A model generated the notes under the pieces. The model was not told where the DNA came from. It ran no database searches and saw only the letters and a list, made by a program, of their open reading frames with translations. The translations under genes were made by a program, and so were the position numbers. A stretch of 16,603 nt of DNA, from the UHGV virus genome UHGV-0121259; one strand, written 5' to 3'. Source of the stretch: a virus. Below, in pieces: positions 4,106-15,198 of this stretch (positions are counted from its first letter, which is position 1; the number at the start of each line of letters is the position of its first letter).

Positions 4106-5353
4106 TTATTCTCCTTTCACGATCTGCAGCGGTTCTTCTGCACCGAGCAGCGCCTGTCGTCTGGCAGCATCAACGTAGTTTCCCCACCACTGCATCAGCG
4201 GTCGCCTTTGTTCCAGGTAATCGCTGCGGTTATAGGCCGCTTCGATCTCGTCTTCTTTCTGGTGTGCCAGCGCAGATTCCAGAACTTCACGGGGGAAATG
4301 ACCTGCGCCTGCGGTCCTGGCGATGCTGCGCATGCCGTGGGCGACCAGTTCACCGCCAAACCCCATACGGATAAGCGCGGCGTTCGCGGTCTGTTGGTGC
4401 ATATGCTCCAGTGGTTTGCGAATGCTGGGGAAAACCCACGGACGATGGCGGCTGACTGGCTCCATGATCTGAAGAACGCGCAGTGCCTGTTTGCTGAGCG
4501 GCACCGTATGCGAACGGTTCATCTTCATAAAGGTGTCAGGGATACGCCATTCTGCTTTTTTCATATCGATGTCACACCAGCGGGCGCTAACGGCTTCGCC
4601 GGGGCGAACCCAGGTCAGTAGCTCCCATTCGATAAGGCAGCGGGTTTCCTTGCGGATAGAGGCGTTCTGTAGTGCCAGCATCAGCCTACCCAACTCGCTG
4701 GGGTGGAGTGCGGGCATGTTCTGCTTTTTCGGTTTCTTGAAGCGGGCGACCAGGTTGTCAGCCGGATTGAACTCGATGAGCTCTTCGGAGATGGCAAAGC
4801 GGAAGATTTCATTGAGCCGCGAGATAACCCGCCGCAGCGTTTCGAGGATGCCCTGTTCTTCCAGCGGTGTGAGGTGTTCCTTGAGTATTTTCGGGCGGAT
4901 CTCGGTGACGGGCGTATGGCCCAGAGAAGGAAAGACGTGCATCTCCAGCGAACGCCAGATATCTTTGACGTGATCTTCGCTGAGTCCACAGGTCCGTTTT
5001 TTCTCTTCCAGCCACTGTCCGGCTACCTTTTCCAGCGTGCATTCATTCTGGATGCGTTTTTCTTCGGCCATTTCAGCTAAGTGTTGACGAGGATCGATGC
5101 CCTGCCAGAGCAGTCGTCTGTACTGTGTGCGAGTTTCGCGGGCCATCGCCAGTGTAACGACCGGGTAAGGGCCAAGGCTGGTTTTGGTGCGCTTTTTGGT
5201 GACGGGATGATAATACTCGAAATGCCAGGCCTTCCTCCCTGAAGTCTTAACCAGCAAGTACAGGCCTTCACCGTCCCGTAGCTCATAATCTGTGCTACGG
5301 GGCTTCGCGCCAGCGATCTCCACATTTGTTAAGGGTTTCAGTTGCTTAGGCAT
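4106..5353 (-). CDS. int: P4-family tyrosine integrase (site-specific recombinase)
   Basis: 415 aa; N-terminal arm-binding region (KPLTNVEIAGAKP...DGEGLYLLV) and C-terminal catalytic region with conserved His/Arg/Tyr context (HGMRSIARTAG...ALAHQ...AYNRSDYLEQRR), resembling CP4-57 IntA-type integrases. Lies immediately downstream of the ssrA 3'-end att copy on the same strand. Confidence 0.9.
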   Translation of the reverse strand: MPKQLKPLTNVEIAGAKPRSTDYELRDGEGLYLLVKTSGRKAWHFEYYHPVTKKRTKTSLGPYPVVTLAMARETRTQYRRLLWQGIDPRQHLAEMAEEKRIQNECTLEKVAGQWLEEKKRTCGLSEDHVKDIWRSLEMHVFPSLGHTPVTEIRPKILKEHLTPLEEQGILETLRRVISRLNEIFRFAISEELIEFNPADNLVARFKKPKKQNMPALHPSELGRLMLALQNASIRKETRCLIEWELLTWVRPGEAVSARWCDIDMKKAEWRIPDTFMKMNRSHTVPLSKQALRVLQIMEPVSRHRPWVFPSIRKPLEHMHQQTANAALIRMGFGGELVAHGMRSIARTAGAGHFPREVLESALAHQKEDEIEAAYNRSDYLEQRRPLMQWWGNYVDAARRQALLGAEEPLQIVKGE

Positions 5354-5649: not shown

Positions 5650-6717
5650 TTAACTCTCTGCCGCCACTTTGTCGCCATTAAAGGTAAGCAGAGGATCCGT
5701 TTTACCACTATAAGTGGAGATAACTTGAAAGATTGGTACATCATACTTTGCTATCAAATCTGCTATCATGAAAATCTTGCCAGAAGATGCATCGTCTTTG
5801 TATGAAAAAAAATCATCTGTAATATCAAGAATGTCTATCGTAAATTTAAAGTAAGTCGCTATGGTATTTCCAAGCTCACTACTAGACATGAAGTTTGTGA
5901 AAATTTGATATCCTTCTGTAGATAAGGAGGCATGTTCATTTAAACTGACAGTGGTCAAACACAACATCCGGTTTAATTTTAATAGTTTAAATTCTATTGA
6001 ATGTAGTGCTTGCATTTGACGCACTAGAACGTCATTGATATCTAACCCTTTATTCGATGAAGCAAAGCTTTCCATGGATTTAAGAATTTCGAGCCAATAT
6101 TTATTGATTTTTTTTATATATTCTTTATTTGCTTTTGCTGGCCTACCTTTTTCTGGGTTGCTTTCGTCAAATATATATCTATATAAATGTATAGGGTATG
6201 AAACCTTGCATGTAATCTCATGTATTTCAAGGTGGCGTTTGCGATGAATTATTTGGCCAGGTAAATTAGTAAAGTAATCAGTGACAAATTTCAAATGGCT
6301 ATAATGACTATCTGAAAGATTTTTTTGTTTAGCCTCCTGAATCTGTCGATTTGTTTGAACTGTCCGATGAATGTTAGCTACTACGGCAACAAATGGTATG
6401 GATAAAGAAAGTAACGCGATGGGAAGTTTGCTAATAGCAATGAAATTATTAAATCCATCACTGTTAAATTGCGGACTATGTCCAAGCCAGGAAAATAAAC
6501 CAAAATAAAATGATGATAGTAATGGTATCCTTATTGATTGTTTGAATAAGTATTGTTTTGTTAACGGTCTTTCATCCATTTCAAAAGCTTTTTTATTTAT
6601 ACAGAGTGTTAACTCAATAAACACATATAACACATACAAAGATATTAGTGCATATGACAGCCATGAATGTTGTTGAATAAAATCGTTAATAAACACTTTT
6701 TGAGTTTCTCCATCCAA
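5650..6717 (-). CDS. AT-rich membrane-anchored protein of unknown function (about 355 aa), cargo gene between att core and prophage integrase
   Basis: Long ORF in a markedly AT-rich segment (by eye) unlike flanking phage DNA. Three hydrophobic helices in the first ~120 residues, then a ~235-aa K/N/I/Y-rich soluble domain. The start codon is uncertain (TTG at 6717 or GTG at 6696); both overlap the integrase 3' end. Confidence 0.6.
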   Translation of the reverse strand: MDGETQKVFINDFIQQHSWLSYALISLYVLYVFIELTLCINKKAFEMDERPLTKQYLFKQSIRIPLLSSFYFGLFSWLGHSPQFNSDGFNNFIAISKLPIALLSLSIPFVAVVANIHRTVQTNRQIQEAKQKNLSDSHYSHLKFVTDYFTNLPGQIIHRKRHLEIHEITCKVSYPIHLYRYIFDESNPEKGRPAKANKEYIKKINKYWLEILKSMESFASSNKGLDINDVLVRQMQALHSIEFKLLKLNRMLCLTTVSLNEHASLSTEGYQIFTNFMSSSELGNTIATYFKFTIDILDITDDFFSYKDDASSGKIFMIADLIAKYDVPIFQVISTYSGKTDPLLTFNGDKVAAES

Positions 6718-7726
6718 GATTAGCTAGTGGATTCTTTGTTACTGCATCTTCTAAATGGTCGGGGGCAAAGTGGGCGTAAACCATCGTCATTTTTATATCG
6801 GCATGACCCAAAATATCTCGCAGTACCAATATATTTCCGCCGTTCATCATAAAGTGGCTGGCGAATGTATGGCGCAGCACGTGGGTGCATTGCCCCTCCG
6901 GCAGATCAATACTGGCCCGCTTTACTGCCCGCTCAAAGGCTTTTCTGCATGGCGTGAATAACTTCCCTCTGTTTTTGGGGAGTTCTTCATACAGATCCTG
7001 AGAAATAGGCACGGTACGGTTTTTCTTGCCCTTGGTCTTGGTATAGGTGATCCGGTATTTCGATAACTGATGGCCCTGCAGGTTTTCGGCTTCACTCCAG
7101 CGCGCGCCGGTGGCCAGGCATATTTTTGCAATCATCAGCAGGCTGGGGCTTTGAGATTCCGCGCAGGCATCCAGTAGGCGTTTAATTTCTTCCGGAGCCA
7201 AGAACGCCAGCTCACCTTCTGCGATTTTAAATGTTGGTAGCCCGGCGAGAGGGTTTGGTGCTGACCAGTGGCCTAGCTTTTTCAGGGTGCCAAAAACCGA
7301 TGATAGGTTACGTTGTTCGAGGTTTACCGTTCGGGGCTTAACTGGTGACATAAACGCGCCATCTTCATTTCGCATTTCACCTTTTAGCCGCGCTTCCCGA
7401 TATTTTGTGAAATCGGCTGCCGTTAACTCTGAAGCAACCGGATCGCCCAGACCATTACAAATAATGTTGAGTTTCGCCATTAGACGTTTCGGATCCGCAA
7501 GCGTCTGACCGTAGAGTGAGTGCCATTGCTCAATTACTTCTGACAAGCGCCGCCGATCTTCCTTCTCACCAAGCCATGGCTTTTTGTTCACTTCATCCAT
7601 GGTGAAGTTTTCGAATGCTACGGCCTCACCTTTCGTCGCAAATTGCTTGCGCACGCGTTTGCCGTCGCGTCCGTTTGGGTAGCATTCACACAACCATTTT
7701 CCGTTCGGCTGCTTTCTGATGGTCAT
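6686..7726 (-). CDS. int: P2/186-family tyrosine integrase
   Basis: 346 aa; N-terminal arm-binding type fold (KQPNGKWLCECYPNGRDGKRVRKQFATKGEA) and C-terminal catalytic box HVLRHTFASHFMMNGGNILVLRDILGHADIKMTMVYAHF. ATG at 7724-7726, three nucleotides downstream of the repressor stop, as in the P2 C-int operon. Confidence 0.9.
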   Translation of the reverse strand: MTIRKQPNGKWLCECYPNGRDGKRVRKQFATKGEAVAFENFTMDEVNKKPWLGEKEDRRRLSEVIEQWHSLYGQTLADPKRLMAKLNIICNGLGDPVASELTAADFTKYREARLKGEMRNEDGAFMSPVKPRTVNLEQRNLSSVFGTLKKLGHWSAPNPLAGLPTFKIAEGELAFLAPEEIKRLLDACAESQSPSLLMIAKICLATGARWSEAENLQGHQLSKYRITYTKTKGKKNRTVPISQDLYEELPKNRGKLFTPCRKAFERAVKRASIDLPEGQCTHVLRHTFASHFMMNGGNILVLRDILGHADIKMTMVYAHFAPDHLEDAVTKNPLANLGWRNSKSVY

Positions 7727-7729
7727 AAG

Positions 7730-8362
7730 TTAGAGGCTCTTGATTACTTTTATAGCACGGCCTACAACCTCGATATCATCAAGGCTGCACTCAAAAGATG
7801 ACTCACCCTGCTGGACAATTAAGCGATTGCCGGGGATGCGTGCAAGTTTAGCTATCGTTTTTATTCCATCAATATCAACGAGCCATACGCCATTTACTGG
7901 TGGAGTACCGCTACGGTCAACGAGGTAAGAGCCATCGTCTGTATGGATGAGCCACGGATTAGTCATGTTGTGGGGGATTAGACTTTTATCCAATATCACC
8001 TTGCCTTGGTCCACTAAAGCGCCACCATCTAATGTGGCCTTATCAATTTCAGGCGCTACAACCTCGGATAACGGTTTGATGTGGGGCTGGTTCACAAAAC
8101 CAAAACTATTTTCCTGCGCATTATTATCATTTTTATCACCTTGCCCAGTCGTTAACCAAAGCAGCGAAACCCCAGTTTCAAGAGCGCACTGTATAACCCA
8201 TTCTGCAGGGAAGCTATCTCTTAAGTATCTGTTTGCCATAGTGCTTTTTGAAACGGAAAGATGGTCACACAACTGCTGTCGAGAGTTGAAGTTATAAGCC
8301 TTAATCAGCCTATTGATAGCTTCACGCCCTCCGCTCTCATTACCTACCTTGATAGATCTCAT
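7730..8362 (-). CDS. phage CI-type immunity repressor (186-like size class)
   Basis: About 210 aa directly upstream of and co-oriented with int, divergent from the early operon; N-terminal region has an HTH-like segment (QQLCDHLSVSKSTMANRYL). No GDSM-type S24 peptidase motif seen, so probably not autocleavable. First ATG at 8360-8362. Confidence 0.65.
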   Translation of the reverse strand: MRSIKVGNESGGREAINRLIKAYNFNSRQQLCDHLSVSKSTMANRYLRDSFPAEWVIQCALETGVSLLWLTTGQGDKNDNNAQENSFGFVNQPHIKPLSEVVAPEIDKATLDGGALVDQGKVILDKSLIPHNMTNPWLIHTDDGSYLVDRSGTPPVNGVWLVDIDGIKTIAKLARIPGNRLIVQQGESSFECSLDDIEVVGRAIKVIKSL

Positions 8363-10077: not shown

Positions 10078-10304
10078 TGGCTGATTCAATGGACCTTGTA
10101 CAGCAGCGCGTTGAAGAAGAACGTCAGCGCCACATCCACACCGCCCGCAACAGAACGCCGGGCGTTTCCCGTGTGCTTTGCATTGATTGTGATGCACCGA
10201 TCCCGCCAGAACGTCGCCGCGCTATTCCGGGCGTGCAGTGTTGCGTCACCTGTCAGGAAATTGCGGAGCTGAAAGGCAAACATTACGTAGGGGGTGCTGT
10301 ATGA
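10077..10304 (+). CDS. TraR/DksA-family C4 zinc-finger protein
   Basis: 75 aa with CIDCDAPIPPERRRAIPGVQCCVTCQ, the four-Cys zinc-finger spacing of phage TraR-like proteins; stop overlaps the dam start (ATGA). Confidence 0.7.
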   Translation: MADSMDLVQQRVEEERQRHIHTARNRTPGVSRVLCIDCDAPIPPERRRAIPGVQCCVTCQEIAELKGKHYVGGAV

Positions 10305-11158
10305 GCACTATCCTGAAATGGGCGGGTAATAAAACCTCCATCATGGCAGAACTGAAAAAACACCTTCCAGCAGGCCCGCGACTGGTTGAACCTTTCGCGG
10401 GTTCATGCGCTGTGATGATGGAGACAGACTATCCTCATTATCTTGTCGCGGATATTAATCCAGACCTGATTAATCTCTATCAGGTGATTAAAAATGATGT
10501 TGAATACTTCATCAAAGAGGGCAGATATCTTTTTGAAGCCCGTAATGATCCAGAGGCATATCATAAGACGAGACAGGAGTTTAACTTGCGCCATGGTGGT
10601 GCAATTGAACGCGCATTGTATTTCTTATATTTAAATCGCCATGGTTATCGCGGACTGTGTCGCTATAACTTGGACGGTTATTTTAATGTTCCTTACGGAA
10701 ATTATAAAAAGCCGTACTTCCCTGAAAACGAAATATGCGCATTTGCAGAAAAAGCAAAACGCGCAACGTTTATCTGCGCCAGCTATGACGAGACACTGGC
10801 ACTGCTGCAAACGGGTGATGTTGTCTATTGCGATCCACCATATGACGGCACGTTTAACGGATATCACACAGCTGGTTTTACAGAGGATGATCAGTACCAT
10901 CTGGCGTCTATTCTTGAGCGCCGGTCATTAGACGGTCATACGGTTATCGTGTCCAACAGCGATACGTCTCTGACCCGTTCGCTTTATCGTGATTTTACCC
11001 GCCATCGTATAACCGCTAAGCGCAGCATGGGCGTGGCTGCCGGTGATAGTAAAACTGCAGTAGAAATCATCGCCACAAAATCAGCATGCTGGTTTGGTGT
11101 TGATTTGGCGTCTGGTCCTGATATCTCGGTGGAAGCTGAGGTGCGGGCGTGGCAGTGA
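10301..11158 (+). CDS. dam: DNA adenine methyltransferase (Dam-like, N6-adenine)
   Basis: 285 aa; SAM-binding motif [11 protein letters not shown] and catalytic DPPY (VYCDPPYDG); GGGGTG ribosome-binding site; 3' end overlaps the replication gene start by 10 nt. Confidence 0.85.
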
Positions 11159-13557
11159 GTAAATTCACATTACATCATGCACAAACCACCGGCGGCTCGA
11201 ATGAGGCCGCGGTGGCTTTTCCATGGAATGCCCCAAAAAAAGCGGTTAACCCGTATCTGGACCCGGCGGAAGTAGCGCCGGAGTCTGCGCTTTCAAACCT
11301 CATCACTCTGTACGCAGCGGATAACGAGCAGGGGCATCTGCGCCGTGAGGCGCTGAGTGATAAGGTTTGGGAACGTTATTTCTTCAATGAATCCCGTGAT
11401 CCTGTCCAGCGTGAAATAGAGCAGGATCAGCTAATTAGCCATGCCAAAATGGCCCGCGAACAGCAGCGCGTTAATCCCGATTTGGTGATTATTGCCGATG
11501 TAAGCGCTATGCCTGCTCATATCAGCAAGCCTCTGCTGGAGCGGATTAAATACTTCCATAGCCTAGGTAGGGCTAAAGCTTATTCCCGCTATCTGCGCGA
11601 AACAATCAGGCCTTGTCTTGAGCGGCTGGAGCGCGTGCGTGACAGCCAGGTGTCTGCGTCTTTCCTGTTCATGGCGAGCCAAGACGGGCTGGAGGGGCTA
11701 CTGGTACTGCCTGAAATGAGTCAGGATCAGGTCAAACGTTTGTCCACGCTGGTTGCGGCACATATGAGCATGTGCCTTGATGCTGCCAGCGGTGATCTGT
11801 TTGTTGCTGAAGATGTTAAGCCAGAAGAAATCCGCCAGGTATGGGAAAGGGTTGCTGCAGAAGCCATGCGCCTTGAGGTCATCCCGCCTGCCTTTGAGAA
11901 GTTGCGCCGCAAAAAGCGCCGCCGCAAGCCGGTGCCTTATGAACTGATCCCACCGTCGCTGGCGCGCATGCTGTGCGCGGACTGGTGGTATCGCAAATTG
12001 TGGCAGATGCGCTGTGAGTGGCGGGAGGAGCAACTGCGTGCCGTCTGCCTAGTCAACAAGAAAGCGTCCCCGTATGTCAGCTATGAAGCCGTGATCCACA
12101 AACGCGAGCAGCGCCGTAAATCGCTGGAGTTCTTCCGCTCGCATGAGCTGGTCAACGAAGACGGCGACACGCTGGACATGGAAGACGTGGTGAACGCCAG
12201 CAACAGCAACCCGGCACACCGCCGTAATGAAATGATGGCCTGTGTTAAGGGACTGGAGCTGATCGCGGAAATGCGCGGAGACTGCGCGGTGTTTTATACC
12301 ATCACCTGCCCGTCACGCTTCCACGCAACCCTCAACAACGGCAGACCTAATCCGAAGTGGACCAGTGCCACTGTCCGGCAGAGCAGTGACTACCTGGTTG
12401 ATACGTTCGCCGCTTTCCGCAAGGCCATGCACAAGGCCGGGCTGCGCTGGTATGGCGTTCGCGTTGCAGAGCCGCACCATGACGGCACCGTGCACTGGCA
12501 TCTTCTGTGCTTCATGCGCAAAAAAGACCGCCGTTCCATCACCGCACTGCTGCGTAAGTTTGCCATCCGTGAAGACCGCGAGGAGCTGGGCACCAATACC
12601 GGGCCGCGCTTCAAGTCCGAGCTAATCAATCCGCGCAAGGGAACGCCGACCAGCTATATCGCCAAATACATCAGTAAGAACATCGACGGGCGTGGGCTGG
12701 CTAAAGAAATCAGCAAAGAAACCGGAAGATCACTGCGTGACAGCGCCGAGCATGTCAGCGCCTGGGCGTCACTGCACCGTGTTCAGCAATTTCGTTTCTT
12801 TGGTATTCCTGGGCGTCAGGCATACCGCGAGCTGCGCTTGCTTGCTGGTCAGGCGGCGAGAGTGCAGGGCGAACGCAAAGCGGGTGCGCCGGTACTGGAT
12901 AACCCGCGTCTGGATGCGGTACTGGCAGCTGCAGATGCGGGTTGCTTTGCCACTTATATCATGAAGCAGGGCGGTGTACTGGTTCCCCGCAAACATCACC
13001 TTGTCCGCACGGCTTATGAGCTTAACGACGAACCGAGCGCCTACGGCGATCACGGTATCCGTATCTATGGCATCTGGTCCCCGATTGTTGAGGGCAAGAT
13101 TTGCACGCACGCGATGAAGTGGAAAAAGATTCGTAAGGCCGTTGACGTTCAGGAGGCGGCAGCCGACCAGGGCGCTTGCGCCCCTTGGACTCGTGGCAAT
13201 AACTGTCCCCCTGTTGAAAATCTGAACAAATCAGGGGGTGATTTACCTGATATTAAAACCATGGGTGAGAAGGAGCTGCAGGAATATCTCCACAACATGG
13301 GCCAGAAGGAACGGCGGGAGCTGACAGCCAGGTTAAGACTGGTAAAACCTAAGCGGAAAAAAGCCTATAAACAGAATATTTCGGAGCAGCAGCGTCTGCA
13401 GCTTGAGGCAGAACTGACAGCCAGAGGATTTGAAGGTAGTGCATCGGAGATTGATTTGCTCCTGCGTGGCGGCAGCATTCCATCAGGTGCCGGGCTGCGT
13501 ATTTTTTACCGTAACCAGCGGCTGCAGGAAGATGACAAATGGCGTCAGTGGTACTAA
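11149..13557 (+). CDS. replication initiation endonuclease (P2 gpA-type rolling-circle initiator)
   Basis: 802 aa with GTG start; contains the twin-tyrosine motif SYIAKYISK typical of phiX174/P2 A-type nickases; position and size match gene A of P2/186. Confidence 0.85.
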
Positions 13558-13626: not shown

Positions 13627-13669
13627 TTTACATTTTCAAATCCCTAATATACTGTACACATAAACAGTG
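13627..13669 (+). promoter_or_regulatory. LexA (SOS) box overlapping a sigma70-type promoter
   Basis: TACTGTACACATAAACAGTG at 13650-13669 fits CTGT-N8-ACAG of the LexA consensus; TTTACA (13627-13632) sits 17 nt upstream of TACTGT, so the box overlaps the -10. Confidence 0.55.
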
Positions 13670-13715
13670 GGTATATATACAGTTGTTGTGTATCCGTGTA
13701 ATGATAGGAGGGAAG

Positions 13716-13904
13716 ATGCAGGACTATCTTTTGGAGTCATTAAAGCTCCAGCGTATTGATTTTTTTATCAAGCTTGTAGCGGCTAGTGAGTGCAGCGATG
13801 AAGAAAAGCGGCTGGCTATCCAGTGGGTGTCCGAACTGACCGACGAGCTGATGGCGAAAATCCGCAGCCATGAATACTGCCGGTCAATGGACGTAACCAG
13901 TTAA
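13716..13904 (+). CDS. small SOS-operon protein (62 aa), candidate Tum-like antirepressor
   Basis: ATG at 13716 is 4 nt after a perfect GGAGGG ribosome-binding site; first gene downstream of the LexA box and immediately upstream of dinI-like, mirroring the 186 tum-orf97 operon layout. Function inferred from context only. Confidence 0.4.
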   Translation: MQDYLLESLKLQRIDFFIKLVAASECSDEEKRLAIQWVSELTDELMAKIRSHEYCRSMDVTS

Positions 13905-13915
13905 AGGGAATCTGT

Positions 13916-14149
13916 ATGCGCATTGAAATAATGATCGATAAAGAGCAGAAGATTAGCCAGTCTACACTGGACGCCCTTGAATCCGAGCTTTACCGTAATT
14001 TGCGCCCTCTGTATCCCAAAACAGCAATTCGTATCCGCAAGGGCAGCGCCAATGGCGTTGAACTGAGCGGGTTAAAACTGGATGAAGACAAACAGCGAGT
14101 GATGGAAATAATGCAGCAGGTCTGGGAGGACGACAGTTGGTTACATTAG
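13916..14149 (+). CDS. dinI: DinI-family protein
   Basis: 77 aa; MRIEIMIDK...DALESEL...DEDKQRVMEIMQQVWEDDSW aligns by eye with E. coli DinI (MRIEVTIAK...DALAGEL...KEDKQRISEILQETWESADDW). Confidence 0.85.
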   Translation: MRIEIMIDKEQKISQSTLDALESELYRNLRPLYPKTAIRIRKGSANGVELSGLKLDEDKQRVMEIMQQVWEDDSWLH

Positions 14150-14282
14150 CGAACGTTGCGGACGATAAAACTGGTTTTTACCGTCCGCAAGGTTGAACAA
14201 CGAGCCACGCGAGGCGTTAGTGCTGTTGTGCATGTCTATGCCGCATGAAATCGCATGATCGTTTGAGGATCGTTTTTGCTGA

Positions 14283-14308
14283 GGCCCGCCAGAACTGGCG
14301 GGCTTTTG
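14283..14308 (+). terminator. rho-independent terminator of the SOS operon
   Basis: GGCCCGCCAG-AA-CTGGCGGGC followed by TTTTGCTT. Confidence 0.6.
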
Positions 14309-14353
14309 CTTATGTCATGCAGGTGCATGAAAACCGCTACACAAAGCGGGCAG

Positions 14354-14598: not shown

Positions 14599-15198
14599 TT
14601 GTCCGAAAATGACATTAAAGTAGTCGCCTTTAATGTCGTAAGCATGAAGGACAGAGAATTGAACTTAGAGCAGATTGCCAGTCAAAGTATAAGTAACCTT
14701 CAGTTTCTTCTCGATACTTTGAAGATGCCGTTGGCTGTTGGTCCAATCAGTGATGAAGACTATGTGATCCTGACCACAGGATACGCTCAGCTAGAATGGG
14801 ATTATGGTTTTTCTCGGTTTGGCAATCGAAGTGATAAGTTTGAATTTTGTTTGAAGCTCCTTGCGGGGCCACTTAGGCATATCCCTTCTGGCGCAGCTAT
14901 GTGCACCTTTGATGAGGACGCTGGAGTCATAGAGATCCATTTTGTGGAATCTTTTGTGAAAGATGATGACGTAGAGCATCCTCTTTACGGCAACATGTTC
15001 ATGGTTACATTGTGGGCGGTATATCTTTTTGGTAGCGCGGTTGGGTGTCAAGAGATTCGCATCCCTGAAGCCCTGAATCAAAAAGTTGCTGATCACTATA
15101 AAAAATTTGGTTTTAAAGGTGATATAAGCTTGCTTTCGGCACCTTTTGCTACAATAACTGATGTAGTAAGACGCTACATTACTTCTAAGAAACAGTAG
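14599..15198 (+). CDS. hypothetical protein (184-199 aa), cargo gene; possible divergent GNAT-like fold
   Basis: ORF in a lower-GC segment (by eye) between cos-like site and portal gene. Start uncertain (TTG 14599 or ATG 14644, neither with a strong ribosome-binding site). C-terminal EALNQKVADHYKKFGF resembles acetyltransferase motif B (e.g. AtaT EALNEKAHTFYKSLGF), but the CoA-binding Q/R-x-x-G-x-G/A motif is not evident. Confidence 0.55.
   Translation: MSENDIKVVAFNVVSMKDRELNLEQIASQSISNLQFLLDTLKMPLAVGPISDEDYVILTTGYAQLEWDYGFSRFGNRSDKFEFCLKLLAGPLRHIPSGAAMCTFDEDAGVIEIHFVESFVKDDDVEHPLYGNMFMVTLWAVYLFGSAVGCQEIRIPEALNQKVADHYKKFGFKGDISLLSAPFATITDVVRRYITSKKQ

What the first reader, a model, noticed from the sequence alone, without database searches (positions are those of the whole stretch)
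13627..14310. LexA-boxed two-gene SOS operon (small protein plus DinI homologue) resembling the 186 tum induction module
A good LexA box overlaps a promoter -10 and precedes a 62-aa gene with a perfect Shine-Dalgarno site, followed 11 nt later by a clear DinI homologue and a strong terminator. The repressor here lacks an obvious autocleavage motif, so SOS induction would need an antirepressor; phage 186 does this with the LexA-controlled tum gene, co-transcribed with a DinI-like orf. The 62-aa protein is therefore a candidate compact antirepressor.
Basis: partly seen in the sequence, partly recalled or inferred. Interest (0 to 1): 0.45.

Follow-up and report, generated by a model that had tools for sequence, protein, structure and literature searches.

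The report
LexA-controlled tumA–tumB prophage induction operon
This is the known SOS induction switch of Fels-2/186-type prophages: a small antirepressor gene (tumA) and a DinI-like gene (tumB) kept silent by LexA until DNA damage.

Summary
A LexA operator overlaps a promoter at 13627-13684. It is followed by a 62-aa gene (13716-13904), a DinI-family gene 11 nt later (13916-14149) and an intrinsic terminator (14281-14311). The window is the early region of a 186/Fels-2-like prophage whose CI repressor is of the non-cleavable 186 type.

The 62-aa protein is a true homologue of the N-terminal half of 186 Tum (profile-profile probability 96%, E 2e-9). The DinI gene matches Tum's C-terminal half (41% identity). 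The locus is therefore a split tum, annotated tumA/tumB in phage PSP3 and described for Fels-2 and PSP3 in the literature.

The protein is 100% identical to SopEPhi orf10. It is 90% identical to the E. coli HS prophage gene 'tum' (ECHS_RS04495), whose deletion abolishes mitomycin-C induction (Nat Microbiol 2025).

Two refinements emerged:
- The operator is a double, overlapping SOS box of the colicin type.
- Near-identical TumA (at least 97%) sits next to 29 different CI classes (29-99% identity), which suggests it recognises the conserved CI N-terminal domain.

Verdict: real, correctly interpreted, already known. The gap is in annotation ('hypothetical protein'), not in biology.

The parts
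13627..13632 (+). -35 hexamer TTTACA of the p95-like SOS promoter
   Evidence: Read. It lies 17 nt upstream of TACTGT. The same hexamer is at the same spacing in 67 of 77 hexamers scored at that spacing in the 80 related loci. The layout matches the annotated 186 p95.
13650..13655 (+). -10 hexamer TACTGT, which is the left arm of LexA box 1
   Evidence: Same hexamer and position as the annotated -10 of 186 p95. It was not called by the generic promoter scan.
13650..13669 (.). LexA (SOS) box 1, TACTGTACACATAAACAGTG
   Evidence: CTGT-N8-ACAG. HI about 6.9, the best site in the window, reached by 0 of 300 random windows. A box at this place precedes every Tum/TumA homologue examined, and 78 of 80 IMG/VR loci have a box with HI <= 10.
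13665..13684 (.). LexA (SOS) box 2, CAGTGGGTATATATACAGTT, offset 15 nt and overlapping box 1
   Evidence: HI about 9.5, second best in the window, 0.013 expected per random window. The geometry and near-sequence match the ColE1 cea double SOS box, TGCTGTATATAAAACCAGTGGTTATATGTACAGTA (L010 position 5063). It is conserved 15 nt downstream of box 1 in 75 of 80 loci.
13706..13711 (+). Shine-Dalgarno AGGAGG for tumA
   Evidence: Read; 4 nt before the ATG. Conserved in relatives.
13716..13904 (+). tumA: 62-aa antirepressor, homologue of the N-terminal domain of 186 Tum
   Evidence: phrog_698 at E 2.8e-36. hhalign against the 186 Tum N-terminal family: probability 96.2%, E 2.1e-9. It is 100% identical to SopEPhi orf10 and 90% identical to E. 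coli HS tum, ECHS_RS04495. Purifying selection: 31 codons with synonymous-only variation against 16 with amino-acid changes. AF2 predicts a two-helix hairpin, pLDDT 83.
13916..14149 (+). tumB: 77-aa DinI-family protein, homologue of the C-terminal half of 186 Tum
   Evidence: Pfam DinI at E 2.7e-24. It is 41% identical to Tum residues 71-145. Below the NCBIfam cut-off for host DinI orthologues (53 vs 111 bits).
14152..14194 (+). Stable hairpin just after tumB, with no U tract; role unknown, possibly the counterpart of the partial terminator t95a of 186
   Evidence: RNA fold. The 186 annotation has t95a directly after tum.
14281..14311 (+). Intrinsic terminator ending the operon
   Evidence: An 11-pair G+C-rich stem with loop GAAC, followed by UUUUGCUU. 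The 171-nt fold has z = -4.05.
7730..8362 (-). cI: 186-type immunity repressor, the inferred target of TumA (outside the finding's coordinates)
   Evidence: Pfam Phage_CI_repr (4.2e-32) plus Phage_CI_C (6.1e-28), no S24 peptidase match. PDB 2FJR, 186 CI, at E 2.5e-28.

Best explanation
This is the SOS induction operon of a 186/Fels-2-type (Peduoviridae) prophage, a split form of the 186 tum gene.

In the lysogen, two LexA dimers occupy two overlapping SOS boxes (13650-13684). The boxes cover the -10 hexamer and, by inference from its position, the transcription start of a p95-like promoter, so the operon stays silent.

DNA damage activates RecA, and LexA cleaves itself. The tumA-tumB transcript is then made and ends at the terminator at 14281-14311.

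TumA is a 62-aa acidic two-helix hairpin. It binds the prophage's 186-type CI repressor, which cannot cleave itself, and stops it holding its operators. The early lytic promoter then fires (apl, cII, replication gene A) and the prophage enters lytic growth.

TumB is a DinI-family protein. It most likely binds RecA filaments and tunes the strength or duration of the SOS signal. It is not the antirepressor.

What is shown here: the sequence features, the homologies and their conservation. What is shown by others: the requirement for LexA cleavage and for this gene family, in E. coli HS and, from my recollection of Bunny et al. 2002, in Fels-2. What is inferred from 186 Tum: direct TumA-CI binding and the role of TumB.
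For: 1. Context: int, 186-type cI, apl/cox, cII, Dam-type methylase and gene A lie upstream, and portal gene Q lies downstream. This is the same position as tum in 186 and tumA/tumB in PSP3.
2. Operator: two boxes with HI about 6.9 and 9.5, the two best sites in the window and far beyond chance. All nine phage loci examined, carrying Tum or TumA homologues that range from near-identical to only distantly related, have a LexA box upstream. In 80 further loci the box cores are conserved while the spacer bases vary.
3. TumA is homologous to the Tum N-terminal domain: hhalign probability 96.2%, E 2.1e-9, collinear over residues 1-53. The 186 Tum N-terminus hits phrog_698 at E 5.9e-6. The window protein hits phrog_8554 (4.4e-8) and phrog_1993 (1.4e-3), which are the families of 186 Tum and PSP3 TumA.
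4. TumB matches Tum residues 71-145 at 41% identity. In 186 an internal start at codon 71 makes the DinI-like product Tum95.5, annotated 'modulates SOS induction'.
5. TumA-like genes stand alone, without a DinI gene, in ESSI2-type and Yersinia phages. Many 186-type N-terminal homologues are 63-78-aa proteins named 'Tum protein'. The small protein is therefore the functional core.
6. Literature: Lemire 2011 (PMC3121763) states that Fels-2 and PSP3 have tum split in two by a stop codon, and that in PSP3 the upstream gene carries the antirepressor activity.
7. Genetics: in E. coli HS, deletion of tum (ECHS_RS04495, 62 aa, 90% identical to the window protein, followed by a DinI-like gene) or lexA(Ind-) abolishes mitomycin-C-induced lysis (PMC12055606).
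8. The gene is under purifying selection.
Against: - No experiment exists on this particular element or on its CI class.
- Direct TumA-CI binding has been shown biochemically only for the fused 186 Tum (Shearwin 1998, cited). That protein is too diverged for BLASTP to align with this one.
- TumA does not co-vary with CI. The same protein sits beside CI repressors as little as 29% identical to this one. A strictly immunity-specific antirepressor would not be expected to behave that way.
- The -10 hexamer is a poor consensus match.
- My LexA matrix was rebuilt from memory, although it calibrates against published values.
Confidence: 0.87

Rival explanations
1. The operon is intact and LexA-controlled, but in this particular prophage TumA does not match the resident CI class, because the immunity cassette was exchanged by recombination. 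SOS induction of tumA-tumB would then fail to trigger the lytic cycle, and the operon would act only as an SOS-responsive DinI 'moron'.
For: The cI-apl immunity region is highly mosaic: 29 CI classes lie next to a TumA that is at least 97% identical, while cII and gene A are 83-100% identical in nearly all of these loci. The window's CI class is a minority, 7 of 72, and is at most 70% identical to any CI in the phage collection.
Against: tumA and its double operator are kept intact in every CI class, with mostly synonymous change. Orthologues 87-90% identical work with CIs only 43-58% identical to this one, in E. coli HS and Fels-2. The CI N-terminal domain is well conserved across classes: 35 of 64 columns are at least 80% conserved.
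Confidence: 0.07
2. TumA does not act on CI. It is a partner or regulator of the DinI-like TumB, or of RecA or LexA, and the resemblance to the Tum N-terminus reflects a shared DinI-accessory role.
For: The two genes are adjacent in most Fels-2-type loci and are fused in 186. No structure or biochemistry exists for this family.
Against: TumA-like genes occur under a LexA box without any DinI gene. One IMG/VR locus (L065) has TumA but no detectable TumB. In PSP3 the upstream gene alone is reported to carry the antirepressor activity. Deleting only the 62-aa gene in E. coli HS blocks induction while the SOS reporter still fires.
Confidence: 0.04
3. The LexA box and the small ORF are chance features and no small protein is made.
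For: The ORF is short, it has no Pfam or NCBIfam family, and the promoter is a weak consensus match.
Against: 0 of 300 random windows reach box 1. There are 595 related stretches in IMG/VR alone, and the module is present in 1125 of 5426 complete E. coli genomes. The substitution pattern is codon-aware, and the SD is strong and conserved.
Confidence: 0.01

Closest known systems
E. coli HS prophage DuoHS tum (ECHS_RS04495) plus DinI-like ECHS_RS04500; Fels-2 STM2728 plus STM2726.1; SopEPhi orf10 plus orf11
   Same: Same two genes in the same place, after gene A and before the portal gene. TumA is 90%, 87% and 100% identical respectively. The same double SOS box is present. The DuoHS gene is genetically required for mitomycin-C induction.
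   Different: The CI repressor differs (43% identical in DuoHS, 58% in Fels-2). Fels-2 has an extra 243-aa gene after tumB, and SopEPhi carries different downstream cargo.
Phage PSP3 tumA/tumB
   Same: A split tum under a LexA box: a 60-aa upstream gene annotated 'similar to 5' end 186 tum; UV induction of prophage', then a DinI homologue. Both TumA proteins hit phrog_1993 and phrog_8554.
   Different: The sequences are too diverged for BLASTP. PSP3 has a single, near-consensus LexA box (HI about 0.6) rather than a double one.
Coliphage 186 Tum and the p95 SOS operon
   Same: LexA-repressed promoter with TACTGT as the -10 hexamer, an antirepressor of a non-cleavable 186-type CI, and a DinI-like moiety.
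   Different: In 186 the two moieties are fused into one 146-aa protein with internal restarts. It has a single LexA box, and a further gene (orf97) follows. No orf97 homologue was found in the 80 related loci.
Colicin operon double SOS boxes (for example ColE1 cea)
   Same: Two 20-nt LexA boxes offset by 15 nt. The proximal box CAGTGG(T/G)TATAT(G/A)TACAGT(A/T) is almost the same sequence. Colicin genes characteristically bind two LexA dimers (PMC2994835).
   Different: It controls a prophage antirepressor rather than a toxin. That paper explains the colicin case as protection from untimely lethal expression; the same rationale here is an inference.
Gifsy prophage dinI-gfoA/gftA operons (Lemire et al. 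2011)
   Same: A LexA-controlled operon that pairs a DinI homologue with a small antirepressor of a non-cleaved repressor.
   Different: The gene order is reversed (dinI first). The phages are lambdoid, with a different repressor family. I did not test homology between GfoA/GftA and TumA.

Membership tests
Tum/TumA antirepressor (N-terminal domain of 186 Tum) | Sequence homology to the N-terminal half of 186 Tum or to PSP3 TumA | tested here: met
   hhalign probability 96.2%, E 2.1e-9, residues 1-53 against 1-53. Reciprocal PHROG hits. Pairwise BLASTP alone finds nothing.
Tum/TumA antirepressor (N-terminal domain of 186 Tum) | Expressed from a LexA-repressed promoter | tested here: met
   In silico only. 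Double SOS box with HI about 6.9 and 9.5, beyond chance and conserved. LexA binding itself is not testable here.
Tum/TumA antirepressor (N-terminal domain of 186 Tum) | Located downstream of replication gene A in a 186-like prophage that has a 186-type, non-autocleaving CI | tested here: met
   Gene order. CI has Phage_CI_repr plus Phage_CI_C with no S24 match, and matches PDB 2FJR.
Tum/TumA antirepressor (N-terminal domain of 186 Tum) | Binds CI and blocks its operator binding; needed for SOS induction | not testable with these tools
   Known for 186 Tum (cited). A genetic requirement is shown for the 90%-identical E. coli HS gene. Not shown for this element.
DinI family (TumB) | Match to Pfam PF06183 above the gathering score | tested here: met
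   85.7 bits against 24.2, E 2.7e-24. phrog_189 at 6.4e-30. Not a host dinI orthologue: NCBIfam 53 bits against a cut-off of 111.
DinI family (TumB) | Binds RecA filaments | not testable with these tools
   Inferred from family membership only.
Colicin-type double SOS operator | Two LexA boxes offset by 15 nt (sharing 5 nt of the 20-mers), both of plausible affinity | tested here: met
   13650-13669 and 13665-13684. Compared directly with ColE1 at L010 position 5063. My HI values of 6.9 and 9.5 compare with published colicin E1 values of 7.48 and 11.06.
LexA/lambda-CI-type autocleaving repressor (considered for the resident CI) | Peptidase S24 domain | tested here: not met
   No Peptidase_S24 hit at E <= 1. 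There is only a weak PHROG 'UmuD-like' resemblance of the C-terminal domain (2.1e-5). I saw no Ala-Gly or Cys-Gly dipeptide when reading the translated CI, but I did not check this with a tool.

The most novel reading that the evidence does not exclude
TumA of the Fels-2 group is a pan-immunity antirepressor. One essentially invariant 62-aa protein (at least 97% identical) is paired with at least 29 CI classes that are 29-99% identical to the window's CI. One of those classes is 60% identical to 186 CI, yet its loci carry no 186-type Tum. This would work if TumA docks on the conserved N-terminal DNA-binding domain of CI. That domain has 35 of 64 columns at least 80% conserved, against 19 of 98 in the C-terminal domain and 0 of 37 in the linker. 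If so, TumA from one prophage could induce co-resident Fels-2-like prophages of different immunity, and immunity specificity and induction specificity would be uncoupled in this group.
Probability: 0.4. Interest if true: 0.45.

Novelty: already known. Interest (0 to 1): 0.2.

Why it matters
For biology, little is new. The module is the established way in which 186/Fels-2-type prophages, including the SopE-carrying phage of Salmonella, sense DNA damage. It sits in about a fifth of complete E. coli genomes.

The practical value lies in annotation. The antirepressor has no Pfam or NCBIfam family and its PHROG is labelled 'unknown function'. RefSeq calls it 'hypothetical protein' even in E. coli HS, where it has been tested genetically. 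Naming it would make the SOS inducibility of P2-like prophages predictable from sequence.

Two side observations could be followed up cheaply: the colicin-type double SOS box, and one TumA serving many CI classes. Both bear on how tightly, and how specifically, these prophages are induced.

Tried and rejected
- Pairwise BLASTP of the 62-aa protein against 186 Tum and PSP3 TumA found nothing, nor did PSP3 TumA against 186 Tum. Profiles were needed.
- The consensus promoter and terminator scans called neither the promoter nor the terminator. I accepted both from the 186 p95 annotation, conservation and RNA folding instead.
- A match to the 20-nt consensus with up to 3 mismatches finds nothing, because box 1 has 4 mismatches, all outside the CTGT/ACAG cores.
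- The second CTGT-N8-ACAG, inside tumB, was rejected as chance.
- No tRNA or tmRNA and no Rfam family in the window.
- No PADLOC hit for TumA, TumB or the cargo ORF.
- No solved structure for TumA or for the Tum N-terminus.
- Bunny et al. 2002 (PMC151935) is not held. What I say about it comes from Lemire 2011 or from memory.
- A 40-mer from the left flank found nothing in genome contigs, and the flank is not E. coli, so the host species was not determined.
- I did not run a fold search on the AF2 model, because a two-helix hairpin gives uninformative matches.
- I looked for a 186-type Tum, a PSP3-type TumA or orf97 in the 80 related loci and found none.

Full report
**What is there.**
- -35 hexamer TTTACA at 13627-13632, a 17-nt spacer, then TACTGT at 13650-13655.
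- A CTGT-N8-ACAG motif at 13652-13667.
- SD AGGAGG at 13706-13711.
- A 62-codon ORF at 13716-13904.
- An 11-nt gap, then a 77-codon ORF at 13916-14149.
- A G+C-rich hairpin with a U tract at 14281-14311.

CTGT-N8-ACAG occurs twice in the window against 0.16 expected.

I rebuilt a LexA heterology-index (HI) matrix from 30 E. coli SOS boxes recalled from memory. It reproduces published values: recA 4.45 against 4.31, umuDC 2.42 against 2.77, and lexA 7.03 and 7.33 against 6.39 and 8.31 (published values from PMC2994835). With this matrix the 20-mer at 13650-13669 scores about 6.9. It is the best site in the window, and none of 300 random windows reached it.

The other CTGT-N8-ACAG, inside the DinI gene at 14009-14024, scores about 17. 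About 3.8 such sites occur per random window, so it is chance.

The generic promoter and terminator scans called neither element. The promoter nevertheless has the same layout as the annotated p95 of phage 186, where TACTGT is the -10 hexamer and the left arm of the LexA site. Folding gives an 11-pair terminator stem followed by UUUUGCUU.

**Context.** The window is the early region of a 186/Fels-2-type prophage:
- integrase, 6686-7726, minus strand;
- CI, 7730-8362, minus strand, with Pfam Phage_CI_repr and Phage_CI_C;
- an Apl/Cox-like gene and CII;
- a TraR/DksA zinc-finger protein and a D12-class adenine methylase;
- replication gene A, 11149-13557;
- the finding;
- a cargo ORF;
- the portal gene on the minus strand.

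The CI matches the crystal structure of 186 CI (2FJR, E 2.5e-28) and has no S24 peptidase domain.

**The operator is double.** A second LexA-like box, CAGTGGGTATATATACAGTT (13665-13684, HI about 9.5), lies 15 nt downstream of the first and overlaps it. It is the second-best site in the window, with 0.013 such sites expected per random window.

The combined 35-mer has the same geometry as the classical double SOS box of the ColE1 colicin promoter. I read that box directly from the plasmid: TGCTGTATATAAAACCAGTGGTTATATGTACAGTA. The Fels-2 proximal box is identical to the ColE1 one.

In 80 related IMG/VR loci:
- 78 have a best box with HI <= 10;
- 75 have a second box exactly 15 nt downstream with HI <= 13;
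- the spacer bases vary while the cores stay fixed;
- TTTACA sits 17 nt upstream in 67 of 77 hexamers scored at that spacing.

Colicin genes use such double boxes to bind two LexA dimers and avoid untimely lethal expression (PMC2994835). The same logic, tight and late induction of a lethal decision, is a reasonable inference here. 186 and PSP3 have a single, stronger box.

**The small protein is TumA.**
- BLASTP cannot align the 62-aa protein with 186 Tum or PSP3 TumA. It also fails between those two.
- The protein belongs to phrog_698 (E 2.8e-36) and also hits phrog_8554 (4.4e-8) and phrog_1993 (1.4e-3).
- Residues 1-70 of 186 Tum hit phrog_1993 (1.5e-23), phrog_8554 (3.4e-12) and phrog_698 (5.9e-6). 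PSP3 TumA hits phrog_1993 (2.7e-32).
- A profile of 21 diverse relatives of the window protein aligned with a profile of 15 relatives of the Tum N-terminus gives hhalign probability 96.2%, E 2.1e-9. Residues 1-53 align with residues 1-53.
- The DinI-family protein is 41% identical to Tum residues 71-145.

So 186 Tum equals TumA plus a linker plus TumB. Consistent with this, 186 retains an internal GTG start at codon 71 that yields a separate DinI-like product annotated as modulating SOS induction.

AlphaFold2 predicts TumA as a two-helix hairpin (helices 2-23 and 28-61, pLDDT 83). The nearly invariant Cys26 sits in the turn. From the sequence I count a net charge of about -4; this is my own count.

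The gene is under purifying selection. Among 85 copies there are 61 distinct DNA sequences but only 17 distinct proteins. Thirty-one codons show only synonymous variation and 16 show amino-acid changes, many of them in the tail after residue 50.

**This is already described.**
- The PSP3 record annotates tumA ('similar to 5' end 186 tum; UV induction of prophage') and tumB.
- The Fels-2 record points its DinI gene to PSP3 TumB.
- Lemire et al. 2011 state that Fels-2 and PSP3 have tum split in two by a stop codon, and that in PSP3 the upstream gene has the antirepressor activity. They cite Bunny et al. 2002 and a personal communication.
- From memory, and not checkable here, Bunny et al. showed that the Fels-2 tum homologue causes the lethality of lexA null mutations in Salmonella LT2.
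- Most directly, the Phollow study (PMC12055606) deleted 'tum', locus tag ECHS_RS04495, in the P2-like prophage DuoHS of E. coli HS. It also built a lexA(Ind-) strain. Both block mitomycin-C-induced lysis, while the SOS reporter still fires in the tum deletion.
- ECHS_RS04495 is a 62-aa 'hypothetical protein' between gene A and a DinI-like gene. It is 90% identical to the window protein and has the same double SOS box.
- The window protein is 100% identical to SopEPhi orf10.
- The module occurs in 1125 of 5426 complete E. coli genomes.

**Mechanism.** Shown here by sequence: a LexA-type double operator over the promoter, a two-gene transcription unit with a terminator, homology of the two products to the two halves of Tum, and a 186-type CI. 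Shown by others for close relatives: dependence of induction on LexA cleavage and on the small gene. Inferred:
- TumA binds CI and prevents operator binding, as 186 Tum does (cited).
- TumB binds RecA filaments and tunes SOS.
- Two LexA dimers bind cooperatively.

TumA-like genes also stand alone under a LexA box, without DinI, in ESSI2-type and Yersinia phages. Many 186-type N-terminal homologues are free-standing 63-78-aa 'Tum proteins'. This argues that the small protein is the effector and DinI an accessory.

**An unexpected side result.** In 80 IMG/VR loci whose TumA is 97-100% identical to the window's, the neighbouring CI ranges from 29% to 99% identity. Seventy-two CI proteins fall into 29 classes at 90% identity. 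One class is 60% identical to 186 CI, and those loci have no 186-type Tum.

In these loci cII is 82-100% identical and gene A 83-97% identical in all but two loci. The picture is a mosaic cI-apl immunity cassette in a conserved backbone.

Across the CI classes:

| CI region | Columns at least 80% conserved | Mean pairwise identity |
|---|---|---|
| N-terminal DNA-binding domain | 35 of 64 | 68% |
| Linker | 0 of 37 | 18% |
| C-terminal domain | 19 of 98 | 41% |

TumA orthologues are known to work with CIs only 43% (DuoHS) and 58% (Fels-2) identical to this one. One TumA type therefore probably recognises a conserved CI surface, most simply the N-terminal domain. This is a hypothesis, given as the novel reading.

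**Rivals.**
- TumA may be mismatched with this minority CI class, so that the prophage is not SOS-inducible. This is possible but disfavoured by the intact, selected gene and operator in every class.
- TumA may act on TumB, RecA or LexA rather than on CI. This is disfavoured by the stand-alone genes and by the E. coli HS deletion phenotype.
- Chance is excluded by the statistics and by conservation.

**Verdict.** The kind of system is already known and has been tested genetically in a 90%-identical orthologue. What is missing is annotation. No Pfam or NCBIfam family exists, and the PHROG is labelled 'unknown function'. Interest is low.

Noticed in passing
L011-L090 (IMG/VR loci), compared with window 7730-8362 and 13716-13904: TumA that is 97-100% identical to the window's sits beside 29 different CI classes, 29-99% identical to the window CI. 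The CI N-terminal domain is far more conserved than the linker or the C-terminal domain. This suggests an antirepressor that is not immunity-specific.
   Followed up: partly
window 13650-13684; L010 (ColE1) 5063-5097: The tumA operator is a double overlapping SOS box almost identical in geometry and sequence to the colicin E1 promoter's double box. 186 and PSP3 have only one box.
   Followed up: yes
window 14599-15198 (+): A 199-aa cargo ORF lies between the tum operon and the portal gene. From my own knowledge, this is the variable cargo slot of P2-like phages. It belongs to phrog_4350 (unknown function, E 3.1e-77) and has no Pfam, NCBIfam or PADLOC hit. Relatives carry different genes at this position.
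   Followed up: partly
window 14152-14194 (+): A strong hairpin lies directly after the tumB stop codon, without a U tract. The 171-nt region from tumB to the terminator folds better than all 200 shuffles (z = -4.05). It may correspond to the partial terminator t95a of 186; its role is unknown.
   Followed up: no
window 14009-14024 (+): A second perfect CTGT-N8-ACAG lies inside tumB. With HI about 17 it is at chance level (3.8 such sites per random window).
   Followed up: yes
window 4106-5353 (-) and 5650-6717 (-): A second tyrosine integrase (Arm-DNA-bind_3, Phage_int_M, Phage_integrase) lies 1.3 kb from the prophage integrase, so two integrative elements appear to sit in tandem. Between them is a 355-aa ORF with no Pfam or PADLOC match, in the lowest-GC part of the window (36.5-42.5% GC), and its 5' end overlaps the 3' end of the prophage int gene. 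No tRNA or tmRNA gene is in the window.
   Followed up: partly
window 10298-11158 (+): A D12-class (Dam-type) adenine methyltransferase gene ends 10 nt inside the start of replication gene A, as in E. coli HS DuoHS.
   Followed up: no
L097 8620-8808 (E. coli HS ECHS_RS04495) and 1125 of 5426 complete E. coli genomes: The experimentally tested tum gene is still annotated 'hypothetical protein' in RefSeq, and the family has no Pfam or NCBIfam model. This is an annotation gap.
   Followed up: yes
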